DNA of 39,639 nt, taken from contig QIHU01000303.1 in assembly GCA_003231035.1 (NCBI GenBank), forward strand, positions 1-39,639, given 5' to 3'. Made by a program: the position numbers and the translations under genes. The notes under the pieces are model-generated. The model did no database searches and had not been told where the DNA came from. It worked only from the letters and a program-made list of their open reading frames with translations. Shown piece after piece: positions 2,802 through 22,790 of this stretch (its first letter is position 1; every line of letters starts with the position of its first letter). This stretch comes from Acidobacteriota bacterium. Its GTDB lineage: Bacteria; Acidobacteriota; Thermoanaerobaculia; Multivoradales; SZUA-115.

Positions 2802-3179
2802 ATGGCCATTGCCACAGAAGATTTCATTCAGCAGATTGACGAGATGAGCGTCTTGGACTTGAACAACATCGTCAAGGCGCTCGAGGAGCACTACGGCGTT
2901 TCGGCTGCCGCGGCTGGTGTTCCGATGATGGCCGCCGGTCCTGGCGGCGGCGAGGCGGAGGAGGAGCAGACCGAGTTTGACGTCGTCCTGACCTCCATCG
3001 GTGACAAGAAGATCAACGTCATTAAGACGGTTCGCGAGGTCACCAGCCTGGGACTCAAAGAGGCCAAGGAGTTGGTCGAGTCGGCGCCGGTCAACGTCAA
3101 GGAAGGCTTGTCCAAGGACGAGGCCGAAGAAGTCAAGAAGAAGTTCGAGGACGCTGGCGCTCAGGTCGACCTGAAATAG
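2802..3179 (+). CDS. rplL: 50S ribosomal protein L7/L12
   Basis: N-terminal dimerisation helix, Ala/Gly/Glu hinge ([21 protein letters not shown]), and C-terminal domain [24 protein letters not shown]...[14 protein letters not shown]. Confidence 0.97.
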
Positions 3180-3202
3180 ACCACGTTCCCGCTGTATTTG
3201 CT

Positions 3203-3232
3203 GCTCGCCGCGCATTACGATGCGCGGCGAGC
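3203..3232 (+). terminator. rplL-rpoB intergenic hairpin (attenuator-like, no U tract)
   Basis: Perfect 13-bp stem GCTCGCCGCGCAT / ATGCGCGGCGAGC with loop TACG, 24 nt after the rplL stop. A partial terminator at this position is known in other bacteria. No T-run follows. Confidence 0.5.
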
Positions 3233-3491
3233 ATTGCCGCCCCCGTATCCAATGACCCGCAAGTGCTCTCTTGAGAGTGCGTATTCTTAGCTTGGCGCGA
3301 CACCGCGCAAACATGTGATTCGGCGCTCTTGCTGACCTGCCAAAACCTCACAACCACGCTCCAGCGCCGCCTCGACGCGGTGCCAGGGAAAGACGTGGTC
3401 TACCCCCGTCCGAGTGGCGCCTCACTATCACTCGAGACTACCGCTCAGCGGTGTACTGCAAGCCCTCTTCAGCTACTGCAGGGAGGATTCC

Positions 3492-7745
<4,254 letters not shown>

Positions 7746-14164: not shown

Positions 14165-15247
14165 ATGCATCGATTCTCGTTCAATCTACTGAATCTTGCG
14201 TTCCTCTGTGGTCTTCTCGCCCTAGCTGGGCCGGCGCGGGCCGCTAACTTCAATGTTGTTCTGAGTTCCAATGTCTTCGTGCCCTCGGTACTCAATATCA
14301 ATGTCGGCGACAGCGTCACTTGGACTAACCAAGGGGGCTTCCACAATGTGGAGGCGGTGAGTGGTCTCTTCAACAGTGGGCCGCCGGCCAATCCTCCCTG
14401 GACTTTCACCTTCACCTTCACCACGCCTGGGACGGTGCCGTACATCTGCATCGTCCACTCCGCCATCGGGATGACAGGGGTGATCAATGTCGCTGGCGCG
14501 CCGCCGGTTCCGGGCTCGATTCGCTTCGCGGAAGGCGCCTCGACGGTCAATGAGGCGGCGGGGATCAAGGCGCTTGAGTTGCAACGCATCGGCGGTAGCG
14601 ACGGTGCGGTGAGCGCGACCTTCTCAACCGCCAACGGCTCCGCCACCGCTGGCCAGGACTATACGGCGACCACTACGGTGGTGAATTGGGGGGACGGTGA
14701 CAGCAGCTCGAAGAACGTCACGGTGATGATCCTCGAAGATACTCTCGACGAGGCCAACGAGACGGTGGCGCTCTCCCTTTCCAACCCGACGGGCGGAGCT
14801 AGCCTGGGCAACCCGGCGAACGCGACGCTGACCATCATCGACAATGACGATGCCACCCCGCCGCCGCCACCGCCACCGCCGCCGCCAGTGGAGCCATGTG
14901 TGGAAGATGCGGAAACCCTCTGCCTGCTCGATGACCGTTTTGAGGTCACGGCCCTCTTTGAAACCAACCAGGGTCAGACCGGGGTGGCTCAGGCGATCGA
15001 GCTGACGCCGGACACCGGCTACTTCTGGTTCTTCACCGAGGAGAACGTCGAGCTGGTGGTCAAAGTCCGCAACGCCTGTGTCAATCCTTTCAACCGCTTC
15101 TGGTTCTTCGCTGGCGGTCTGACCAATGTGCAGGTCGACATCATGGTGACAGACACCGAAACCGGTGCGACAAAGAGCTACAGCAACCCACTGAACACCC
15201 CTTTCCTACCGATCACCGACACCGACGCCTTCAATACCTGTCCCTAG
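14165..15247 (+). CDS. Secreted multidomain protein: signal peptide, type-1 copper (cupredoxin) domain, Calx-beta domain, poly-Pro linker, unassigned Cys-containing C-terminal domain
   Basis: AAGGAGAG RBS and signal peptide ending ARA|A. Copper ligand pattern H60...C95-x2-H98-x4-M103 (GGFHNV, YICIVHSAIGM). The Calx-beta signature is SIRFAEGASTVNEAAG...GSATAGQDY...DDTLDEANETVALSLSNPTGGASLG. PPPPPPPPPP lies at nt 14858-14887, followed by a 118-aa domain. Confidence 0.8.
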   Translation: MHRFSFNLLNLAFLCGLLALAGPARAANFNVVLSSNVFVPSVLNINVGDSVTWTNQGGFHNVEAVSGLFNSGPPANPPWTFTFTFTTPGTVPYICIVHSAIGMTGVINVAGAPPVPGSIRFAEGASTVNEAAGIKALELQRIGGSDGAVSATFSTANGSATAGQDYTATTTVVNWGDGDSSSKNVTVMILEDTLDEANETVALSLSNPTGGASLGNPANATLTIIDNDDATPPPPPPPPPPVEPCVEDAETLCLLDDRFEVTALFETNQGQTGVAQAIELTPDTGYFWFFTEENVELVVKVRNACVNPFNRFWFFAGGLTNVQVDIMVTDTETGATKSYSNPLNTPFLPITDTDAFNTCP

Positions 15248-16898: not shown

Positions 16899-17051
16899 CG
16901 ATCGATACTAGCACGGTCGTGCGGTTCTGGGTCAAGAGGGGTACGGCGAGAGTTCGCATTGAGCGAAGACAGGCAAATAGATGTATGATGTGAATCACTG
17001 AACTGAGGCTTGAAAATATCTGCTCCGTCTCGCTGAATGGGGAGAGGCCGA

Positions 17052-17197
17052 ATGCGATTGCCGAGGGTGTTGCACCGAGGTTGGCCATGGATGGTCCTGC
17101 AAGTGGTGGTGGTGGTGACGGGCTACCTGTCGCGACCTGGTTTTGAGCTGATCCTGCGCAATGACAGCCATCTCTACGTCAAGTTGGCGCGGCAGGT
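17052..17197 (+). pseudogene. 5' fragment of a membrane GT-C-like (ArnT/PMT_2-like) gene interrupted by the mobile element
   Basis: GGAGAGG RBS and ATG 17052, encoding MRLPRVLHRGWPWMVLQVVVVVTGYLSRPGFELILRNDSHLYVKLARQ. As it stands, the reading frame runs into the left inverted repeat and stops at TAA 17208-17210. It joins in frame to 21596 onward once the element and one TSD copy are removed. The split itself is certain. The GT-C family call is moderate (motif NDS.Y..LA......RT.GYPLFL). Confidence 0.75.
17190..17197. repeat. Target-site duplication, left copy (CGGCAGGT)
   Basis: These 8 nt directly abut the outer end of the left IR and are identical to 21588-21595, which abut the right IR. 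Confidence 0.9.
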
Positions 17198-17223
17198 GGT
17201 GGTGTCCTAAGAGTGTGTGGGCG
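17198..17223 (+). repeat. Left terminal inverted repeat (IRL)
   Basis: GGTGGTGTCCTAAGAGTGTGTGGGCG. The reverse complement of 21562-21587 is GGTGGTGTCCTAACAGTGTGTGGGCG (one mismatch). Confidence 0.92.
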
Positions 17224-17363
17224 CCCGATCTAGCCTGACTCGGCTTGAGCGGGCGGTAGTCTTGCCGGTATCGGGAGGGGCGCGCCTTCCCGGAACCGAT
17301 GAAGCGGCCCGGCGCAGCGGTGAGAACGCGACGCCGAGCCTAGCCACTCAGGAGACAAGCCTC

Positions 17364-17609
17364 ATGAGCGACCGCGATAATTGTACCGCCGACCCGGAGC
17401 GCGAGACCGATTTACAGGAGATACACGCCGGCCTGATGTCGGCGGACGAAGCCGACTGGAACCAAGCATTGCGGGCCGTGCTGCTGCGCCTGCTAGCTCA
17501 CAAGCGGATTTGGTTCGCTACCGCTGCGCAGATCGGAGCTACAGCCGACCGGCAAGGCAAGCGCGCAGCGTTGGTGGAGTTGGTGATGGTTCTAGCTTTC
17601 GAGGGCTAG
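17364..17609 (+). CDS. Hypothetical protein (81 aa), passenger gene
   Basis: AGGAGA RBS lies 8 nt before ATG 17364, encoding MSDRDNCTADPERETDLQEIHAGLMSADEADWNQALRAVLLRLLAHKRIWFATAAQIG... No recognisable motif. A hairpin with a short T-run follows. Confidence 0.45.
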   Translation: MSDRDNCTADPERETDLQEIHAGLMSADEADWNQALRAVLLRLLAHKRIWFATAAQIGATADRQGKRAALVELVMVLAFEG

Positions 17610-17621
17610 GAACTGGAGTTG

Positions 17622-17647
17622 AGGGCGGCGCGGGTCGCCCTTTCCTT
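17622..17647 (+). terminator. Terminator-like hairpin after the 81-aa ORF
   Basis: AGGGCGGC / GTCGCCCT (8 bp, one G:U), GCGG tetraloop, then TTCCTT. Confidence 0.4.
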
Positions 17648-17778
17648 GGCCTAGAGTTGTTACCGATCTACCCGAAGGAGCAGGATTGAAGTAAGATGCT
17701 TGCGTGTGGCGCTTTGATTTAAGCCTCAAGATGGGGCCGGAACGACCACTGGTCGCTCAATGGAAGGAGTCAGAGAGA

Positions 17779-18228
17779 ATGGTTCGCAAGCTAGATGACT
17801 TGATCGATGAGTTCGCATCAGATTTTGACGGCAACATGAAGTCAGATGAAGTTGCGAATGACCGGAGCCGGAAGCGAAGAGACGACTTCTGCGATGCATT
17901 CCTTCAGTGGCATCGATCTACCCTGTTGCCTTTGCTTGAGCGCGCAGGGTCAAGGATCGAGGAAAAGTCAGAGTTCCTACAGACGTCTGTAGGCCCTAAT
18001 CCACTTGGGCTTGATGGCACGACTCTTAGGGTCTTCAGACGAAGCGACACAAGCAATCTTTCCGGTTGGTCCATGACCTTCTTGAAGCACTTCGAGTCAC
18101 TGAAGGTAAAGGTTTTAATTGATATGCCCGGAAAAGACACAGAAGACTTTTCCGTTGATGCTTTGACGGAAGAGCGCCTTGACGAGCTGATTGCTGAGTT
18201 CTTGCGGATGATTTCTATTCGCCGCTAG
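17779..18228 (+). CDS. Hypothetical protein (149 aa), passenger gene
   Basis: AAGGAG RBS lies 9 nt before ATG 17779, encoding MVRKLDDLIDEFASDFDGNMKSDEVANDRSRKRRDDF... The GC content is low. No motif is recognised. Its stop codon overlaps the stop of the convergent transposase gene. The ORF track opens at 17704. Confidence 0.55.
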   Translation: MVRKLDDLIDEFASDFDGNMKSDEVANDRSRKRRDDFCDAFLQWHRSTLLPLLERAGSRIEEKSEFLQTSVGPNPLGLDGTTLRVFRRSDTSNLSGWSMTFLKHFESLKVKVLIDMPGKDTEDFSVDALTEERLDELIAEFLRMISIRR

Positions 18229-19190
18229 ATCGATGCCGCTAGCAGATCGCCCATCGACCACGGCGCCCGTGTGACTCCGGCCTTCATCGCCGGGGTCATG
18301 CGGATCGACCGATGCATCTTGCAGAGGTTGTAGCTCGCGAAGTGCAGGGCGAACGCGGCGCGGAGGTTCTCCCACTTCTTGGAGAATGCACAGGTTAGGC
18401 GGGTCATCCGCTTCATGTGGGTGCGGATGGTGAGGTTCGACCGCTCAACGTGGCTAGTGCAGATCCGCGCTTCGTCAGGCGCGCCGTGGATGGCTCGCTT
18501 CTCAATGGCTATTATCGAGGCGGGAGAATACCGCCGCTGATCTTCCTTCGTGGTGGAGCCGTACTGCTTGATGACCTGGCCGTAGTCCACTCGTGTTCCC
18601 AGGTGGTAGCTGATGGCTTCCGGGTAGGAGTCGAGGCCATCGGTGGAGAGTTGGAAGCGGCCGGCCGTGGCCTTGTCCAGTGCCTCGCAAAAGGCGTCAG
18701 CGTGCATCGCGGTACGGGAGCCGAGCCGGTGGGTGAGAATCATCTTGCTCTCGCGGTCAATGGCTGTCCAACACCAAGCATCACCAAGGTGGTGGCTGTC
18801 GATCTTCCTACCGGTCTTGGTCTTCTGCTTCATCCCGACGAAACCCCAAATCTCATCTGCTTGAACATCGTTGACCTCGACGCCCACCACCAGGCGCTCA
18901 AGGAGTTCGCCGCAGCGGTCGCCGACGGTGCGCAGCAGGCGACACACGGTGTCTCTGTGCGTCCCGGTTACGCGCTCGATAGCGCGGATGCTGGAACCCT
19001 CGACTAGGAGGTTGAGAACCAGGATGGCCCGCTCTAGCGGGATGCGGTGGTTGCCCAGCGGGCGGGCCGGCCGGTTGGCGAAGGTCGAGCCGCAAGCCTT
19101 GCACTTGAACCGCTGGTGGCCGTTGCGATCCGCTCCCCACTTGATGGCGTCGCCGGAGCATTTCGGGCAATTGGTGTGTGTCGTTTCCAT
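18225..19190 (-). CDS. IS1-family transposase, single ORF (zinc finger + HTH + DDE)
   Basis: N-terminal CPKCSG...CKACG zinc finger and HTH SSIRAIERVTGTHRDTVCRLLRTVG. DDE candidates are VQADEIWGFVG, LSTDGLDSYPEA and HVERSNLTIRTHMKRMTRLTCAFSKKWENL. The last closely parallels E. coli IS1 InsB [25 protein letters not shown]. Confidence 0.88.
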   Translation of the reverse strand: METTHTNCPKCSGDAIKWGADRNGHQRFKCKACGSTFANRPARPLGNHRIPLERAILVLNLLVEGSSIRAIERVTGTHRDTVCRLLRTVGDRCGELLERLVVGVEVNDVQADEIWGFVGMKQKTKTGRKIDSHHLGDAWCWTAIDRESKMILTHRLGSRTAMHADAFCEALDKATAGRFQLSTDGLDSYPEAISYHLGTRVDYGQVIKQYGSTTKEDQRRYSPASIIAIEKRAIHGAPDEARICTSHVERSNLTIRTHMKRMTRLTCAFSKKWENLRAAFALHFASYNLCKMHRSIRMTPAMKAGVTRAPWSMGDLLAASI

Positions 19191-19196
19191 GTCCCT

Positions 19197-19225
19197 ACTG
19201 TACTCCCTTTAGGAGTACAAGTCAA
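19197..19225 (-). promoter_or_regulatory. Putative transposase promoter with an embedded 8-5-8 palindrome
   Basis: The minus strand reads TTGACT, a 17-nt spacer, TACAGT, then AGGGAC and ATG. The -10 therefore ends 6 nt before the start codon, giving leaderless geometry. The palindrome TGTACTCC-CTTTA-GGAGTACA (19199-19219) covers the spacer and part of the -10. Confidence 0.5.
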
Positions 19226-19260
19226 GAGATTGAGAAGAGGAATCCTCAGAAATCTTGGTA

Positions 19261-19289
19261 TTGACATGGCGTTACGATGGGAGTACATT
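19261..19289 (+). promoter_or_regulatory. Putative promoter of the RHH gene
   Basis: TTGACA (19261-19266), a 17-nt spacer, TACATT (19284-19289), then GGGAGC and ATG 19296. The geometry matches the divergent transposase promoter. The half-site GGAGTACA recurs at 19280-19287. Confidence 0.5.
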
Positions 19290-19295
19290 GGGAGC

Positions 19296-19460
19296 ATGAA
19301 GGAAGCGCGAATACAGGATGAGAGATTGCAGGTCAGATGCACGGCGGAAGAGAAGGCGACACTGCATGCGGCGGCAAAGCTAGAGAACCGAAACCTCTCG
19401 AACTTTGTTCTAACAGCAGCGCTTGAGCGAGCGCGTACGGAACTCAAGAAGGAGAAGTAG
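19296..19460 (+). CDS. Ribbon-helix-helix protein of the DUF1778/TacA antitoxin type, truncated to the DNA-binding domain (54 aa)
   Basis: MKEARIQDERLQVRCTAEEKATLHAAAKLENRNLSNFVLTAALERARTELKKEK matches the DUF1778 RHH pattern (beta strand R-L-x-V-R, EEK..L..AA...G.S.S.F). It ends where TacA-type antitoxins begin their toxin-binding tail. An alternative ATG at 19266 lacks an RBS. Confidence 0.65.
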   Translation: MKEARIQDERLQVRCTAEEKATLHAAAKLENRNLSNFVLTAALERARTELKKEK

Positions 19461-19660
19461 GGCGGCGCGTAGGGATCGGACCTCGACCGCCCTACGGCTA
19501 GATATCTGCGACCGTGGCAGATACGGCCGATGCCGCTTCCACCCGATCGCTCTTGGAGCCTCTTGGGCCACCTCGCACCGCCTTTCCAGTTGCGGCACAG
19601 CCCTGCGAGCGGATACAATCCACCCGATGAAATCAATGGCAGGGCTGCTGCCTGGTTTCT

Positions 19661-19690
19661 GAAACGCCACCTCGTAACAGGTGGCGTTTC
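19661..19690. terminator. Perfect 12-bp stem hairpin between convergent genes
   Basis: GAAACGCCACCT-CGTAAC-AGGTGGCGTTTC. The U tract is poor on both strands (GCGTT on plus). It may be a bidirectional terminator or a protein-binding/nick-site hairpin. Confidence 0.45.
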
Positions 19691-19784
19691 GCGTTAGCGG
19701 GGTCTACTTCGCCCCGACCTCAGCATCGTAAGTGAGCGATGCCGGCCTGTCAAGCGGGCTAAGTCTATGAAAACAATAGGCTTA

Positions 19785-20630
19785 CTAGCGTCTTGTCCCG
19801 GACGAAAAGGATGACTTATCCCGTTCTTCTTCGATATTTACAGATTTTGTCCCGTCTTTTTTGGAGACTGTCCCGCTGTTTGAGTTACCTTGTCCCGTAA
19901 CCGGGCTCAGCCTGTCCCGAAGTGCGGAAATCGAATCTCTTGCCCAAAAAAAGTCGTATACGGCGACACGGCGCTCTTCAAGGCGGTCCTCCTCGCCATG
20001 CAAGCGTTTCAGCTCCGAGAGAATCTCCTCCTCCTCGAAGAAACCCTTCTCTCGAAGTGAAGGCACGAGCCGGTCAGCGTGACCGGCTAGGAACTCTTGC
20101 ATCTCCTTCAGCTCTGCCTTGATGCTCTCGACAAGTGAGCCCAGCTCAGGGTCTGCCGGGTCGATGCCGAGCCTTCGGAGTTTCTCCGCCGCCGGCTCTA
20201 GGCTTCTCTCTGCCTCCTCCAGAGCCCTTCTCTCGTTGGCAAAGATGTTCTTCACGCCCCGTTCTTGAAATTCAGGAACCGGAGGACCCGTGGGCAAGGT
20301 GCCTTTCTTCTTAGCGCGGCGAAACGCTCTTCGAAGGCGCTCATAGTGGCGCTTTGGTGGATCCAGATTCCGCTTTCGAATGAGCCGCCAGACAGCAGCC
20401 TCCTGTTCGAGGCCATCTACCTCAATCAAGCGCCTTATCTGGTAGAGCTCGGCGTGCTTTTCCGACTTGGAGCTCCGATATCTCTCATCGGATGGCAAGG
20501 GGTTGCACCTCCACCTGGTGCCCACAAAGAAAAGCGGCGCGGCATTCCGGGCTGTGGGAGCCCAGCGTTCGGGGATCAACCTAGCCGCGCCGAAGATTGA
20601 GGCGATTCTACAGGAGGGGGCGGCGGTCAA
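19785..20630 (-). CDS. Hypothetical charged, helix-rich protein (up to 281 aa; start uncertain), passenger gene
   Basis: A long ORF lies 45 nt downstream of the DUF3800-like gene on the same strand. The basic patch RRAFRRAKKKG is followed by acidic helical segments (ERRALEEAERSLEPAAEKLRRLG, EEEILSELKRLHGEEDRLEERR). The last ~45 codons are encoded by the repeat array and read as low-complexity SGT/DGT/RDK. No internal ATG occurs before residue 176, so an alternative start codon is likely. Confidence 0.5.
   Translation of the reverse strand: MTAAPSCRIASIFGAARLIPERWAPTARNAAPLFFVGTRWRCNPLPSDERYRSSKSEKHAELYQIRRLIEVDGLEQEAAVWRLIRKRNLDPPKRHYERLRRAFRRAKKKGTLPTGPPVPEFQERGVKNIFANERRALEEAERSLEPAAEKLRRLGIDPADPELGSLVESIKAELKEMQEFLAGHADRLVPSLREKGFFEEEEILSELKRLHGEEDRLEERRVAVYDFFWARDSISALRDRLSPVTGQGNSNSGTVSKKDGTKSVNIEEERDKSSFSSGTRR
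19793..19919 (+). repeat. Array of six phased direct repeats, consensus (T/C)TGTCCCG
   Basis: Copies start at 19793 TTGTCCCG, 19816 TTATCCCG, 19847 TTGTCCCG, 19868 CTGTCCCG, 19890 TTGTCCCG and 19912 CTGTCCCG. All share one orientation. Spacings are 23, 31, 21, 22 and 22 bp, with AT-rich spacers. Confidence 0.85.
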
Positions 20631-20675
20631 CGCGGCGGGAGGGCTACTCGGAAGCCGTGGACGGTGGCGGATCTG

Positions 20676-21545
20676 CTAACTGATTTCTGAGTCGAGGTCC
20701 GAATTGATTTTCTCGCCGTACGCTTGAATCTGCGCGAAGTACTCACGAAGAATCCGACTTCTTGGTGTTAGGTGCTGCGCCTTGAACTTGATGCGCTTGC
20801 CCATGATCAGATTGCGAAATTCAGGCCGCGAAGGCTCCTTGCCACTGTCAAGGTGTTCACCCTTGAATCGTCCGTATTCCCACGCGAGTAGATCGGCTGC
20901 CTGAAGGACTGTTGAGTCCTGCTTTCCGACGAATGCGTGGGAGTGGTAGTGATATGCACGGCGCAATGTAGCGTCTCGCCTCACGAGGTGCATCAAAGCG
21001 TCGGCGTCGCCTTGCGGACCTTCGTTTCCCTGCTCAAAGAGATAGGAAACGACATCTGTCCTCTTATCCTTGTCCAGGTGCGCACCGACCGCAGCGAGAC
21101 AGAAGTGGGCACAAAGTGGGTACGCGCGGTTGAATCCGCGCACCTTAGGAAGGTATGGTTCGATCTCGGTGAGGTTGCAGGCGACTGCTACCCCGAACTG
21201 AGCGTACTTTGCAATAATTTCGACAGCTTGATCCTGAAGCCGTTGCGACGCTTCGCGCCCTCTCAGGTGCTTAAACTGTCGATTTCTGTGTACAACCTCC
21301 ACCATGTGGAAGATCCGGCCACAAGTAAGCATCTCTTTCCACTCAGACTGAAAACGCGCAGCCTGACCCTTGGTGAATACGAAGCCAGCCACGCAGAAAG
21401 TGCCGTCTGGCCTCTGCGATTCGTCGAAGTAGGCTTTCAGCATGCAGGCTAGGCCGCCGTCCCTTGGGAGAAGGTCGTTAAGGTCGAAACCCAAGAAGTC
21501 TAGCGCATCGCTCGTGGCTACACTGGCCCCCCGCCCGCTACTCAT
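20676..21545 (-). CDS. DUF3800-like protein, passenger gene
   Basis: MLKAYFDESQRPDGTFCVAGFVF and LQAADLLAWEY match the two hallmark DUF3800 motifs as I remember them (N-terminal DES, C-terminal Q.aDl.a). Start is taken at ATG 21545 (GGGGGAAGG RBS), 17 nt inside the right IR. ATG 21443 would start directly at the conserved core and is an alternative. Confidence 0.6.
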   Translation of the reverse strand: MSSGRGASVATSDALDFLGFDLNDLLPRDGGLACMLKAYFDESQRPDGTFCVAGFVFTKGQAARFQSEWKEMLTCGRIFHMVEVVHRNRQFKHLRGREASQRLQDQAVEIIAKYAQFGVAVACNLTEIEPYLPKVRGFNRAYPLCAHFCLAAVGAHLDKDKRTDVVSYLFEQGNEGPQGDADALMHLVRRDATLRRAYHYHSHAFVGKQDSTVLQAADLLAWEYGRFKGEHLDSGKEPSRPEFRNLIMGKRIKFKAQHLTPRSRILREYFAQIQAYGEKINSDLDSEIS

Positions 21546-21561
21546 CCCCGCCGCCTTCCCC

Positions 21562-21587
21562 CGCCCACACACTGTTAGGACACCACC
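21562..21587 (-). repeat. Right terminal inverted repeat (IRR)
   Basis: CGCCCACACACTGTTAGGACACCACC is the reverse complement of IRL with one mismatch. Confidence 0.92.
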
Positions 21588-21595
21588 CGGCAGGT
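21588..21595. repeat. Target-site duplication, right copy (CGGCAGGT)
   Basis: Identical to 17190-17197 and directly abuts the IRR. Confidence 0.9.
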
Positions 21596-22790
21596 TCCGG
21601 TGGGTGAGATGCTGGGTAGCATGCGCACCGTGGGGTATCCACTCTTCTTGCGGGCGGTCGAGAGCGCTTGTGGCGAGCTGCTTTGCCTGCCGGCTGTACA
21701 GTTGTTGCTATACGGTTTTTCGGTGGTGCTACTCTGCGCGGCGCTGGAACGGTTTGGCCTCTCCGCCTTGGCAGCGGTCGTGGCTACCACCCCTCTTCTC
21801 TATTCCTCGTTGGTCGTGCACTTGGCGCCTTCGGCCATGACCGAGGTTCCGGCCTCGGCCTTTGGCTTGGTTGCGTTGTCCGCGCTGCTTGGCCTGTCGC
21901 TGGCGCGGGGGCGGGCGGTTGGCCTCTGGATCCTCTTTGGGGCCACCCTCTTGGTGGCCTACCAGATTCGACCGGCGTTCCTATTCCTGGTTCCACTCAG
22001 TCCGCTGGCCGTTCTGGTCTGGAGCCGTTCTCTACGTCGTGCCGGGGTCGTCCTGCTGGTGGCGGTGGTGCCCTTCTTGGCTTTCAGCTTCTTGCGCTGG
22101 GTGGTGGTGGGGCACTTCGGGCTGGTCGGTTTTGCGGGCTACAATCTCTCGGGTATCGCTACGTCCATGGTGGGAGACGAGGTGATCGAAGTTCTGCCCG
22201 CTGAGGATCAAGAGCTAGCCTCCCGTATCCTCGCGCAACGCCAAGCCCGTGGCTTGCCGCCGCTCACCGCCTCCTCTCCGTACGACGACTGGCAGGAGTC
22301 CTTCAACATTAACGCGTGGAAGATCGCCATTCCCCAGGCACGCGGGTTGTGGAGGGAGTTTTACTCCGACCGCCCCCCTGAGATTCCGCGCGATCTGTTT
22401 GTCGATCGGCGGCTCAGTCGATTCTCGATCTCCGTGATCCGCCAGCGACCGCGTTTGTATGCGGTTTGGCTAGCTCGGTCGTGGTTGCGAGCCTTGCGGT
22501 TGACCGCCGCCAAACCTTGGATCTGGCTGCCGGCGTTGCTGTGCCTATTCAGCGCGGCAGTTTGTCGTTGGCGTTGCCAGAAAGGGGGGTGGAGCGGTGC
22601 CGGAGCGGCTCTGAACTTCCTGCTGCTGGCGGTCGCGTTCTATCTCGCCTCCCTCGCCCTCACCCTGCTGGTTGAACCACCGGAGTGGCGCTACCTGGCC
22701 TCGGCCGAACTTCTTCTGCCCGGTGCGATGTTGGCCGCGGCGGTGGAGCTTTGGCGCTCTGGATCGGGGAAGGGAGCGGTCGAGCGGTGA
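21596..22790 (+). pseudogene. 3' fragment of the interrupted membrane GT-C-like gene
   Basis: The open frame (ORF track 21600-22790) encodes many TM helices: GSMRTVGYPLFLRAVESACG..., AYQIRPAFLFLVPLSPL. The frame is continuous with 17052-17197 after excision: ...LYVKLARQ-V-PVGEMLGSMRTVGYPLFL. Confidence 0.75.

What the first reader, a model, noticed from the sequence alone, without database searches (positions are those of the whole stretch)
17190..21595. 4.39-kb IS1-family element with long cargo: 26-bp IRs, 8-bp TSD, centrally placed transposase
Directly readable: IRL GGTGGTGTCCTAAGAGTGTGTGGGCG (17198-17223) and the reverse complement of 21562-21587 differ at one base. CGGCAGGT flanks both ends. 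The IR tip GGTGGTG fits the IS1-family GGnnnTG consensus, and 8-9 bp duplications are typical of IS1. The only transposase is IS1-like. Classic IS1 is under 1 kb, yet here the transposase sits 1.0 kb from one end and 2.4 kb from the other. I found no internal copies of the IR, so roughly 3.4 kb of passenger DNA moves as one unit. I recall ISfinder describing an ISMhu11 subgroup of IS1 that reaches several kb, but cargo content in such elements is poorly characterised. This cargo consists of proteins of unknown function.
Basis: partly seen in the sequence, partly recalled or inferred. Interest (0 to 1): 0.8.

Follow-up and report, generated by a model that had tools for sequence, protein, structure and literature searches.

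The report
Cargo-carrying IS1-family insertion sequence
A 4.39-kb jumping gene of the IS1 family, carrying five extra genes and a structured RNA leader, has inserted into and split a membrane-protein gene; it belongs to a large, little-described group of similar cargo-carrying elements in Acidobacteriota and Planctomycetota.

Summary
A 26-nt inverted repeat with one mismatch (17198-17223 / 21562-21587) is flanked by the 8-bp duplication CGGCAGGT. Removing the element and one copy of the duplication restores a 451-aa ORF. That ORF aligns without a gap across the junction to an uninterrupted 59%-identical homologue.

The 321-aa transposase is IS1-family: it passes the NCBIfam and Pfam cut-offs and keeps the zinc finger and DDE residues shared with E. 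coli IS1.

The element is not a one-off. 52 of 85 loci carrying a related transposase (counting this window) have homologous ends (GGTnGTGTCCTAA...) with exact 8-bp duplications. All 51 non-redundant duplications differ. These elements are 1.9-8.2 kb long, and none is about 1 kb.

Cargo varies between elements: HTH/ImmA regulators, TIR, HicB, Panacea, AAA ATPases and, here, a DUF3800 RNase H-like protein.

Two "cargo" items are really conserved backbone:
- A ribbon-helix-helix gene divergent from the transposase gene.
- A covariation-supported, int-alpA-like RNA leader with its own -10 box (20518-20593, minus strand).

Verdict: a genuine transporter IS of the IS1 family. It is a new member of a known kind and of moderate interest.

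The parts
17037..17197 (+). 5' part of the interrupted target gene (conserved membrane protein); its last 8 bp (17190-17197, CGGCAGGT) are the left copy of the target-site duplication
   Evidence: the in-frame fusion with 21596-22790 gives 451 aa, which aligns gap-free across the junction to P0122.
17198..17223 (+). Terminal inverted repeat at the transposase-distal end (conventional IRR, because tnp is on the minus strand); tip GGTGGTG
   Evidence: The family consensus is GGTaGTGTCCTAAt..tgtGTtG.
17364..17609 (+). 81-aa ORF, no family match (passenger, coding status uncertain)
   Evidence: no hits. AGGAG lies 9 nt upstream of the ATG (read).
17779..18228 (+). 149-aa orphan ORF, convergent with tnp and overlapping its stop codon
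   Evidence: Only a self-hit among 5.8 billion proteins.
18225..19190 (-). IS1-family DDE transposase, a single 321-aa ORF: zinc finger C8/C11/C30/C33, D112, D184, E249
19197..19289 (.). Back-to-back sigma-70-like promoters. P_tnp is 19225-19197 on the minus strand (TTGACT-17-TACAGT). P_rhh is 19261-19289 on the plus strand (TTGACA-17-TACATT). Each ends 6 nt before its ATG. Palindrome TGTACTCC-N5-GGAGTACA (19199-19219) and a third GGAGTACA box (19280-19287) overlap the -10 boxes; these are the putative RHH operator.
   Evidence: searches (promoter scan; inverted repeat I5), and the sequence read. The operator role is inferred.
19296..19460 (+). Ribbon-helix-helix protein (TacA1/NikA-like), divergent from tnp; a conserved partner of the transposase in this subclade
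   Evidence: PF08681, 38.2 bits against a cut-off of 21; the same gene sits in the same position and orientation in 18 of 51 bounded elements, including 17 of the 21 closest to this one.
19628..19753 (-). Sigma-70-like promoter (19753-19725, TTGACA-17-TACGAT) followed by three hairpins (19719-19628). Either a candidate small RNA or a bidirectional terminator between convergent genes.
   Evidence: MFE -42.7 kcal/mol, z -4.5, 0 of 200 shuffles. Not conserved in relatives.
19794..19919 (-). Array of five exact CGGGACA heptads plus one CGGGATA, phased about 22 bp apart. It overlaps the non-conserved 3' extension of the 237-aa ORF. Putative protein-binding array.
   Evidence: five of the seven TGTCCCG in the window lie within 126 bp, all on one strand.. 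Searches show that homologues end before most of the array.
19785..20498 (-). 237-aa all-helical protein of a small uncharacterised family (ERLRKxYRRLxxxGxLP motif), translated from the RNA leader
   Evidence: The same leader-ORF-RHH-tnp order occurs in L005 and L086.
20518..20612 (-). Conserved extended -10 box TGTAGAAT (20612-20605) and a structured RNA leader related to the Rfam int-alpA motif (20593-20518)
   Evidence: 26.4 bits, E 0.022; the L018 homologue scores 35.9 against a gathering score of 35.8; 12 instances in 10 loci, 7 of 15 pairs covary, 98% paired, 0 of 500 shuffles; conserved -10 box..
20646..20681 (+). Relic of the 3' end of a second IS1-family transposase gene (TRKPWTVADLLT), inverted relative to the resident tnp; a scar of past recombination or nesting
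   Evidence: I1: 33 nt, 79% complementary to the resident tnp 3' end; 14 of 25 family transposases hit exactly here with their C-terminal 9-11 residues, at up to 91% identity.
20676..21545 (-). DUF3800 protein (predicted RNase H-like fold) with DE (YFDES) and QxxD (LQAADLL) motifs. The start is uncertain: ATG at 21545 or 21443; the mechanical ORF begins at GTG 21572, inside the IR.
   Evidence: PF12686, 25.3 bits against a cut-off of 21. The fold and defence associations come from PMC7736814 and PMC10910872.
21562..21587 (-). Terminal inverted repeat at the transposase-proximal-upstream end (conventional IRL), 25 of 26 matches to the other end
21588..22790 (+). Right copy of the target-site duplication (21588-21595, CGGCAGGT) and the 3' part of the interrupted membrane-protein gene

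Best explanation
Window 17198-21587 is one complete, single-copy transporter insertion sequence (tIS) of the IS1 family.

Inferred from IS1 biology: the 321-aa transposase has an N-terminal zinc finger and helix-turn-helix followed by a DDE catalytic core. It binds the two 26-bp ends (tips GGTGGTG), joins them to a target cut with an 8-bp stagger, and so moves everything between the ends as one 4.39-kb unit.

Shown: the last such event put the element into a conserved membrane-protein gene and duplicated CGGCAGGT.

The element has a conserved backbone and exchangeable cargo. The backbone has three parts:
- The ends.
- The transposase gene, with a divergent ribbon-helix-helix gene. Their back-to-back promoters overlap GGAGTACA boxes, so the RHH protein probably represses both (inferred).
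- A promoter plus structured, int-alpA-like RNA leader that drives a variable downstream ORF, here the 237-aa helical protein.

The remainder is cargo that differs between relatives: a DUF3800 RNase H-like protein and the 149-aa and 81-aa orphan ORFs. By analogy with the TIR, HicB, Panacea, ImmA/XRE and ATPase cargo of sister elements, it probably serves defence, addiction or element regulation (inferred).

Cargo turnover happens by recombination between family members. The mosaic pair L001/L002 and the relic of a second transposase gene inside this element both point to this.
For: - Ends and duplication: (0 chance matches).
- Empty site restored in frame and aligned gap-free to an intact homologue.
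- Lower G+C than the flanks.
- IS1 membership.
- Family-wide architecture: one search shows homologous ends 4.0-4.6 kb apart in the three closest relatives. Searches show 52 of 85 loci (counting this window) with GGT.GTG-tipped ends and exact 8-bp duplications, lengths 1867-8196 bp. One search shows 51 distinct duplications and T3, T6 and G7 conserved at 99-100% without being imposed by the search.
- Variable cargo.
- RHH in a conserved position.
- RNA leader.
- Mosaicism.
- Relic.
- Promoters.
Against: - Only one copy is visible, and the rest of the genome could not be searched, so current activity is unproven.
- ISfinder could not be queried, so the subgroup assignment is open.
- The RHH-operator and leader functions are inferred from position and conservation only.
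- The window's own leader scores below Rfam's gathering threshold (26.4 against 35.8 bits).
- The two orphan ORFs may not be genes.
- My IR/TSD scan imposed GG tips and an exact 8-bp duplication, so roughly 0.3-1.6 of the 52 bounded elements could be chance pairs (my estimate).
- Junction reads were not available.
Confidence: 0.9

Rival explanations
1. The present element is a fusion or nested product of two family members and not a stable unit. What looks like cargo is debris of a second element, and the outer ends only happen to pair.
For: - A 36-nt relic of a second transposase 3' end lies at 20646-20681 in inverted orientation.
- Other loci carry partial or second transposase copies inside or next to elements: L079, L022, L006, L009, L059.
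- L074 has three end copies.
Against: - One perfect 8-bp duplication flanks the outer ends, and the target ORF is restored exactly. The whole 4.39 kb therefore moved as a unit in the last event.
- No internal end copies remain.
- The relic is only about 36 nt.
- This is better read as the element's history than as an alternative to it.
Confidence: 0.3
2. The element belongs to the IS1595 family, whose members are the textbook transporter ISs, and not to IS1.
For: - IS1595 elements also have an N-terminal zinc finger, 8-bp duplications and passenger genes. The TnCentral preprint states that tIS are presently restricted to IS1595 and IS66.
- The NCBIfam zinc-finger domain model NF050000 is shared by both families.
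- The spacing between the second D and the E is about 40 residues longer than in E. coli IS1.
Against: - The IS1 equivalog NF033558 passes its cut-off and PF03400 passes its own.
- No IS1595 Pfam model hit at E <= 0.01.
- Database relatives are annotated as IS1 family.
- The IS1 signature motifs DE.WG[FY]V, TDG and ER.NL..R are aligned.
Confidence: 0.05
3. The element is an immobile fossil: a once-mobile tIS that is now fixed, with its genes retained for host benefit.
For: - There is a single copy in the window.
- The exact transposase sequence occurs in only one contig in the 15-billion-protein collection.
- The cargo includes possible host-useful defence genes.
Against: - The transposase ORF is intact with all catalytic and zinc-binding residues.
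- The ends match at 25 of 26 positions and the duplication is perfect.
- The interrupted host gene has not decayed: both halves are still open and 59% identical to the homologue. This points to a recent insertion.
Confidence: 0.15
4. The repeat and duplication are coincidental, or the junctions are an assembly artefact.
For: None found. Reads could not be examined.
Against:: 0 chance matches, homologous ends in dozens of relatives, and exact in-frame restoration of a conserved gene.
Confidence: 0.02

Closest known systems
IS1 (E. coli IS1A/IS1 family prototype)
   Same: - Homologous DDE transposase with an N-terminal CxxC...CxxC zinc finger and the motifs DE.WG[FY]V, TDG and ER.NL..R.
- GGnnnTG tips.
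- 8-9 bp target duplication.
   Different: - Here there is a single 321-aa ORF, not insA/insB' joined by a -1 frameshift.
- About 40 extra residues lie between the second D and the E.
- The element is 4.39 kb rather than 0.77 kb.
- It has five extra ORFs, an RNA leader and a separate RHH regulator.
ISMhu11 subgroup of the IS1 family (ISfinder; recalled from memory as 0.9-4.6 kb, not checked here)
   Same: A long IS1-family element whose length falls inside the range I recall.
   Different: Sequence relationship not testable here. The clade found is bacterial (Acidobacteriota, Planctomycetota) and reaches 8.2 kb.
Transporter ISs (tIS) of the IS1595 family (ISNwi1+, ISNha5 groups; Siguier et al. 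2009, cited in PMC7986276)
   Same: An IS-like structure with one transposase, terminal IRs, an 8-bp duplication and passenger genes. The concept is described in PMC9330008 and the TnCentral preprint.
   Different: The transposase matches IS1 models, not IS1595 models. It also has a conserved RHH partner and an RNA leader.
int-alpA RNA motif (Rfam RF02996)
   Same: The three-helix architecture is shared, and one family member (L018) reaches the gathering score. The motif lies in a mobile element upstream of an ORF.
   Different: The window's copy scores 26.4 bits against a gathering score of 35.8. Here the motif sits inside IS1-family elements, and no integrase or alpA gene was noted next to the instances examined. 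The integrase/alpA association of the Rfam family is recalled from memory.
DUF3800 proteins with associated ncRNA motifs (Weinberg et al. 2017, PMC5737381); retron type VII and Cas12a2-linked DUF3800
   Same: A DUF3800 protein with DE and QxxD motifs, and a structured RNA that starts 82 nt downstream of its stop codon.
   Different: The RNA is not one of the DUF3800-I to XI motifs. In sister elements the RNA occurs without a DUF3800 gene, so the pairing here is probably incidental.

Membership tests
IS1 family | DDE transposase homologous to IS1 InsAB' | tested here: met
   NF033558 scores 106.5 bits (cut-off 100) and PF03400 scores 36.3 (cut-off 24.1). BLASTP against E. coli IS1 transposase gives E 2e-16.
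IS1 family | N-terminal zinc finger and catalytic D, D, E | tested here: met
   C11, C30, D112, D184 and E249 are invariant and C8 and C33 nearly invariant in 25 relatives, and they align with E. coli IS1. NF050000 scores 40.6 bits (cut-off 28). Pfam Zn_ribbon_InsA scores 24.1, just under its cut-off of 26.1.
IS1 family | Terminal inverted repeats with GGnnnTG tips | tested here: met
   GGTGGTG at both ends. T6 is 100% and G7 99% conserved across 102 ends.
IS1 family | 8-9 bp target-site duplication | tested here: met
   8 bp here. Exact 8-bp duplications occur in 52 related loci counting this window (51 after dropping a duplicate contig), and all 51 are distinct.
IS1 family (classical group) | Two ORFs (insA, insB') fused by a -1 frameshift; length 0.74-1.2 kb | tested here: not met
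   A single uninterrupted 321-aa ORF and an element of 4390 bp. This excludes the classical group only. Single-ORF subgroups are recognised by ISfinder (from memory).
ISMhu11 subgroup of IS1 | Transposase clusters with ISMhu11 in ISfinder | not testable with these tools
   ISfinder is not available, and the term is absent from the paper library.
IS1595 family | Transposase matches IS1595 catalytic-domain models | tested here: not met
   No IS1595 Pfam model at E <= 0.01. Only the zinc-finger domain model shared by IS1 and IS1595 hit.
Transporter IS (tIS) | IS-like unit (one transposase, IRs, duplication) that encloses passenger genes | tested here: met
   The cargo differs among relatives.
Composite transposon | Two flanking IS copies | tested here: not met
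   One transposase gene, no internal IR copies, and only a 36-nt relic of a second transposase gene.
int-alpA RNA (RF02996) | Score at or above the Rfam gathering threshold | tested here: inconclusive
   The window scores 26.4 against 35.8. The homologous L018 instance scores 35.9. The shared structure is supported by covariation.
DUF3800 (PF12686) | Pfam gathering score; DE and QxxD motifs | tested here: met
   25.3 bits against a cut-off of 21. YFDES and LQAADLL were read. The motif definition comes from PMC7736814.
TacA-TacT type II toxin-antitoxin | RHH antitoxin with an adjacent GNAT toxin gene | tested here: not met
   The RHH domain matches PF08681, but there is no toxin gene beside it. 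Its constant neighbour is the transposase gene.

The most novel reading that the evidence does not exclude
This element represents an unrecognised, widespread clade of modular IS1-family transposons in Acidobacteriota and Planctomycetota. A fixed regulatory backbone acts as a platform into which defence, addiction and regulator genes are swapped by recombination. The backbone would consist of a repressor gene next to the transposase gene plus a portable promoter and int-alpA-like RNA leader. On this reading the RNA leader is a dedicated control element, or a recombination landmark, of the transposon.
Probability: 0.4. Interest if true: 0.55.

Novelty: new member of a known kind. Interest (0 to 1): 0.4.

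Why it matters
IS1 is usually taught as a minimal element of about 0.8 kb. Here a whole clade of IS1-family elements from soil phyla is never minimal in the sample examined. Its members carry exchangeable defence-like, toxin-antitoxin-like and regulator genes.

That makes these elements a plausible route for moving such genes within poorly studied phyla, and annotators who look only for 1-kb ISs would miss their true boundaries.

The conserved RHH partner and the covariation-supported RNA leader offer concrete handles for studying how an IS1-type transposase is regulated without the classical InsA/frameshift system. They also give a new genomic context for the uncharacterised int-alpA RNA motif.

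Tried and rejected
- PADLOC and PHROGs scans of the five non-transposase ORFs gave nothing useful. There were no PADLOC hits, and only weak Arc/RHH-type PHROG hits for the RHH protein.
- The 149-aa ORF has no homologue other than itself.
- The 237-aa protein gave a confident AlphaFold model (pLDDT 89). It had no significant PDB neighbour: best Foldseek E 2.2. It also had no Pfam hit.
- Profile comparison found no relation between the alternative ORFs that follow the RNA leader in different elements.
- Rfam at gathering thresholds found only a tRNA in the window. None of the DUF3800-I to XI motifs was found.
- Literature searches for ISMhu11 and for IS1-family cargo elements found nothing specific. 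The two Chandler-lab reviews that hold the ISfinder table are not in the library.
- The window's contig could not be traced to a named organism, and no further contigs of the same genome could be retrieved.
- The heptad array and the three-hairpin region are not conserved in relatives, so no comparative support could be obtained for them.
- The idea that the RHH gene is an orphan antitoxin was rejected because its constant neighbour is the transposase gene.

Full report
**Observation.**
- GGTGGTGTCCTAAGAGTGTGTGGGCG at 17198-17223 and the reverse complement of 21562-21587 match at 25 of 26 positions.
- These are the only two matches in the window at up to three mismatches, and none appeared in 100 dinucleotide-preserving shuffles.
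- The 13-nt tip has no additional copy inside the element.
- CGGCAGGT lies immediately outside both ends, at 17190-17197 and 21588-21595.
- The only transposase gene, 18225-19190 on the minus strand (321 aa), lies 1027 bp from one end and 2397 bp from the other.
- G+C is 0.55-0.59 inside the element and 0.61-0.67 in the flanks.

**The insertion is real.** Deleting 17198-21595 (the element plus one copy of the duplication) joins ORF 17037.. in frame to ORF 21600-22790 and gives a 451-aa protein. A search with that reconstructed protein found uninterrupted homologues of 435-489 aa. The best, P0122 (476 aa, 59% identity, E 1e-158), aligns without any gap across the junction: HLYVKLARQV|PVGEMLGSMRT against RLYVKLDRQASVVEILGSMRT. 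This is an empty-site reconstruction at the protein level, and it makes coincidence or misassembly very unlikely. The neighbours are ordinary chromosomal genes: a TetR regulator, alpha/beta hydrolases and a class-V aminotransferase.

**The transposase is IS1-family.**
- It passes NCBIfam's IS1 equivalog (NF033558, 106.5 bits, cut-off 100) and Pfam DDE_Tnp_IS1 (36.3 bits, cut-off 24.1). It matches the shared IS1/IS1595 zinc-finger model, and no IS1595 catalytic model hit.
- Against the annotated IS1 transposase of an E. coli plasmid it gives E 2e-16. The CxxC...CxxC finger and the motifs DE.WG[FY]V (D112), TDG (D184) and ER.NL..R (E249) are aligned. D112, D184, E249 and two of the zinc-finger cysteines are invariant, and the other two cysteines nearly so, in 25 relatives.
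- Differences from classical IS1: a single ORF with no frameshift, and about 40 extra residues between the second D and the E.
- The tips GGTGGTG fit GGnnnTG, and the duplication is 8 bp.

**The element belongs to a large clade of long elements.** The transposase has 5626 homologues at E <= 1e-10.
- The three closest relatives with context all have homologous ends (GGTCGTGTCCTAA...) 4.0-4.6 kb apart. These are L001 and L002 from one Acidobacteriota MAG and L003 from a Deltaproteobacteria-labelled MAG.
- A scan of one genome per species returned 80 more loci, mostly Acidobacteriota with some Planctomycetota.
- A script looked for GG-tipped inverted ends flanked by an exact 8-bp direct repeat around each transposase gene. 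It bounded 52 of 85 loci (counting this window). Most of the rest run off a contig end.
- Lengths range from 1867 to 8196 bp, with a median near 3.7 kb. None is close to 1 kb.
- The consensus end is GGTaGTGTCCTAAt..tgtGTtG. T3, T6 and G7 are 99-100% conserved, although only the GG was imposed by the search.
- After dropping one duplicate contig, all 51 duplications differ and show no target consensus.
- I estimate that 0.3-1.6 chance pairs could pass the weakest threshold. Most pairs carry the family motif.

**Backbone and cargo.** All-against-all comparison of ORFs inside the 51 non-redundant bounded elements shows that only the transposase is universal. A Pfam scan of 134 non-transposase ORFs of at least 100 aa from these elements (the window's own DUF3800 protein was a 135th query) found the following:

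| Pfam family | ORFs |
|---|---|
| HTH_3 (XRE-type regulators) | 10 |
| DUF3467 | 4 |
| Peptidase_M78 (ImmA/IrrE) | 3 |
| P63C | 3 |
| AAA_22 | 3 |
| TIR | 2 |
| SocA_Panacea | 2 |
| HicB | 2 |
| DNA methylase | 1 |
| ClpP | 1 |
| Bro-N | 1 |

This is a typical mobile-element mix of regulators, addiction modules and defence candidates. Two features of the window's "cargo" are conserved backbone.

*The ribbon-helix-helix gene.* The RHH gene (19296-19460; PF08681 TacA1, 38.2 bits) lies next to the transposase gene and diverges from it. An HMM built from its homologues finds the same gene in the same place and orientation in 18 of 51 elements, including 17 of the 21 whose transposases are most similar to this one. 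The two genes have back-to-back sigma-70-like promoters (TTGACT-17-TACAGT and TTGACA-17-TACATT), each ending 6 nt before its ATG. A palindrome TGTACTCC-N5-GGAGTACA and a third GGAGTACA box overlap the two -10 boxes (sequence). I infer that the RHH protein represses both promoters and so takes the role that InsA plays in IS1. No toxin gene accompanies it, so it is not a TacAT module. In other branches of the clade the position upstream of the transposase gene is held by XRE or XRE-plus-ImmA genes.

*The RNA leader.* Outside the transposase gene, the only DNA conserved between the window's element and other loci is a stretch of about 90 nt at 20505-20613.
- It coincides with a sub-threshold Rfam hit to int-alpA (RF02996, 26.4 bits, E 0.022).
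- The homologous stretch in L018 reaches the gathering score, 35.9 against 35.8.
- A covariance model built from four copies found 12 instances in 10 loci. All of those in bounded elements lie inside them.
- A further instance lies in L086 directly before a homologue of the window's 237-aa ORF. It is followed by an RHH-sized gene and a 50%-identical transposase.
- On the 12-sequence alignment, 98% of cells pair, against 31-45% when partners are slid. Seven of 15 pairs show compensatory changes, and no shuffle out of 500 reaches the observed values. The alignment was fitted to the model, which favours the structure somewhat.
- Every instance has a TAGAAT-like -10 box, often TGTAGAAT, a few to about a dozen nt upstream. 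An ORF start follows within a few nucleotides in most cases (within 16 nt in 10 of 12), and those ORFs are unrelated to each other.

I read this as a portable promoter-plus-leader cassette that expresses an exchangeable gene.

**The window's own cargo.**
- *DUF3800 protein (20676-21545 or -21443, minus strand).* It passes the Pfam threshold and has the DE and QxxD motifs. Published work predicts an RNase H-like fold and links the family to type VII retrons, a Cas12a2 branch and many ncRNA motifs (PMC7736814, PMC10910872, PMC5737381). The RNA leader starts 82 nt past its stop codon. Sister elements have the leader without a DUF3800 gene, so I regard the pairing as incidental.
- *237-aa ORF (19785-20498, minus strand).* It belongs to a small family of 21 representatives among 1.84 billion proteins and has an ERLRKxYRRLxxxGxLP motif. 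The AlphaFold model is confident and all-helical, but it has no PDB neighbour.
- *149-aa and 81-aa ORFs.* These are orphans.

**Traces of history.** The stretch 20646-20681 on the plus strand encodes TRKPWTVADLLT. This matches the extreme C-terminus of 14 of 25 family transposases, at up to 91% identity. It is also 79% complementary over 33 nt to the resident transposase gene's own 3' end (I1). It is a scar of a second, inverted family member.

In the related MAG, L001 and L002 share the left 820 bp (86% identity), the transposase gene (87%) and the right end, but have unrelated DNA in both cargo blocks and different duplications. Cargo is therefore exchanged by recombination between family members. 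The single perfect duplication shows that the present 4.39 kb last moved as one unit.

**Comparison with what is known.** The structure is a transporter IS as defined in the literature (PMC9330008; the TnCentral preprint; PMC7986276, which cites Siguier et al. 2009). The TnCentral text says tIS are presently restricted to IS1595 and IS66. From memory, ISfinder lists an ISMhu11 subgroup of IS1 reaching 4.6 kb. I could not check that, or test membership. I therefore file the element as an IS1-family tIS, a new member of a known kind. The clade-level observations are the parts that may be new: no minimal members in the sample, the RHH partner, the int-alpA-like leader and modular cargo exchange.

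**Scores.** Confidence that this is a bona fide IS1-family tIS insertion is 0.9. Interest is 0.4: the element is real and tidy and has some fresh regulatory anatomy, but it is not surprising in kind.

Noticed in passing
window 20518-20612 (minus strand); also L001 3390-3467, L002 4618-4694, L003 4622-4698, L005 5595-5673 and 9076-9153, L007 1712-1788, L018 5921-5997, L024 6117-6192 and 8643-8716, L026 5536-5610, L069 5886-5964, L086 1897-1971: A structured RNA leader related to Rfam int-alpA, with a conserved TGTAGAAT -10 box, recurs inside IS1-family cargo elements in front of unrelated ORFs. Covariation supports three helices.
   Followed up: yes
window 20646-20681 (plus strand): A 36-nt relic encodes the C-terminal TRKPWTVADLLT of a second IS1-family transposase, inverted relative to the resident gene. 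It is a scar of past nesting or recombination.
   Followed up: partly
window 19794-19919: Five exact CGGGACA heptads and one CGGGATA lie on one strand at about 22-bp phasing. They lie in and beyond the non-conserved tail of the 237-aa ORF and just upstream of a sigma-70-like promoter. No relative has this heptad array (L062 carries an array of different short repeats); the binding protein is unknown.
   Followed up: partly
window 19628-19753 (minus strand): A promoter-like site TTGACA-17-TACGAT is followed by three stable hairpins (MFE -42.7 kcal/mol, z -4.5). This could be a small RNA, or simply a bidirectional terminator between the convergent RHH and 237-aa genes. It is not conserved elsewhere.
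   Followed up: partly
window 19197-19298: Twin back-to-back promoters for tnp and the RHH gene each end 6 nt before the ATG, which suggests leaderless mRNAs. Three GGAGTACA boxes, two of them forming a palindrome, overlap the -10 boxes.
   Followed up: partly
L001 2664-7285 and L002 3900-7887 (both from GCA_034211275.1): Two elements in one MAG have the same ends and different 8-bp duplications. They share the left 820 bp, the tnp gene and the right end, but both cargo blocks have been swapped.
   Followed up: yes
L074 5682, 8727 and 13877: Three end copies are present. A perfect 29-nt repeat pair lies 3.05 kb apart without a matching duplication, and an outer pair lies 8.2 kb apart with an exact 8-bp duplication. 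This may be a nested or tandem arrangement.
   Followed up: no
L079 element 3044-3874; L022 element 1378-1608; L006 13474-14406; L009 2448-3236; L059 2870-3670: Second or partial copies of family transposase genes lie inside or next to elements. This suggests frequent insertion of family members into or beside one another.
   Followed up: no
L033, L035 (XRE + Peptidase_M78 ORF directly upstream of tnp); L056, L079; L025, L036, L047, L066, L067 (XRE-type ORF upstream): In branches lacking the RHH gene, the slot upstream of the transposase gene is held by XRE or ImmR/ImmA-like regulators. This hints at stress-inducible control of transposition.
   Followed up: partly
window 19785-20498 (minus strand): The 237-aa protein belongs to a rare family (21 representatives in 1.84 billion proteins). 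Its AlphaFold model is confident (pLDDT 89) and all-helical but has no PDB neighbour. Three members checked sit in the same slot of IS1-family elements.
   Followed up: yes
window 14165-15247 (plus strand): An ORF combines a plastocyanin-like copper-binding domain, a Calx-beta domain and an 11-residue proline run. It is unrelated to the finding.
   Followed up: no
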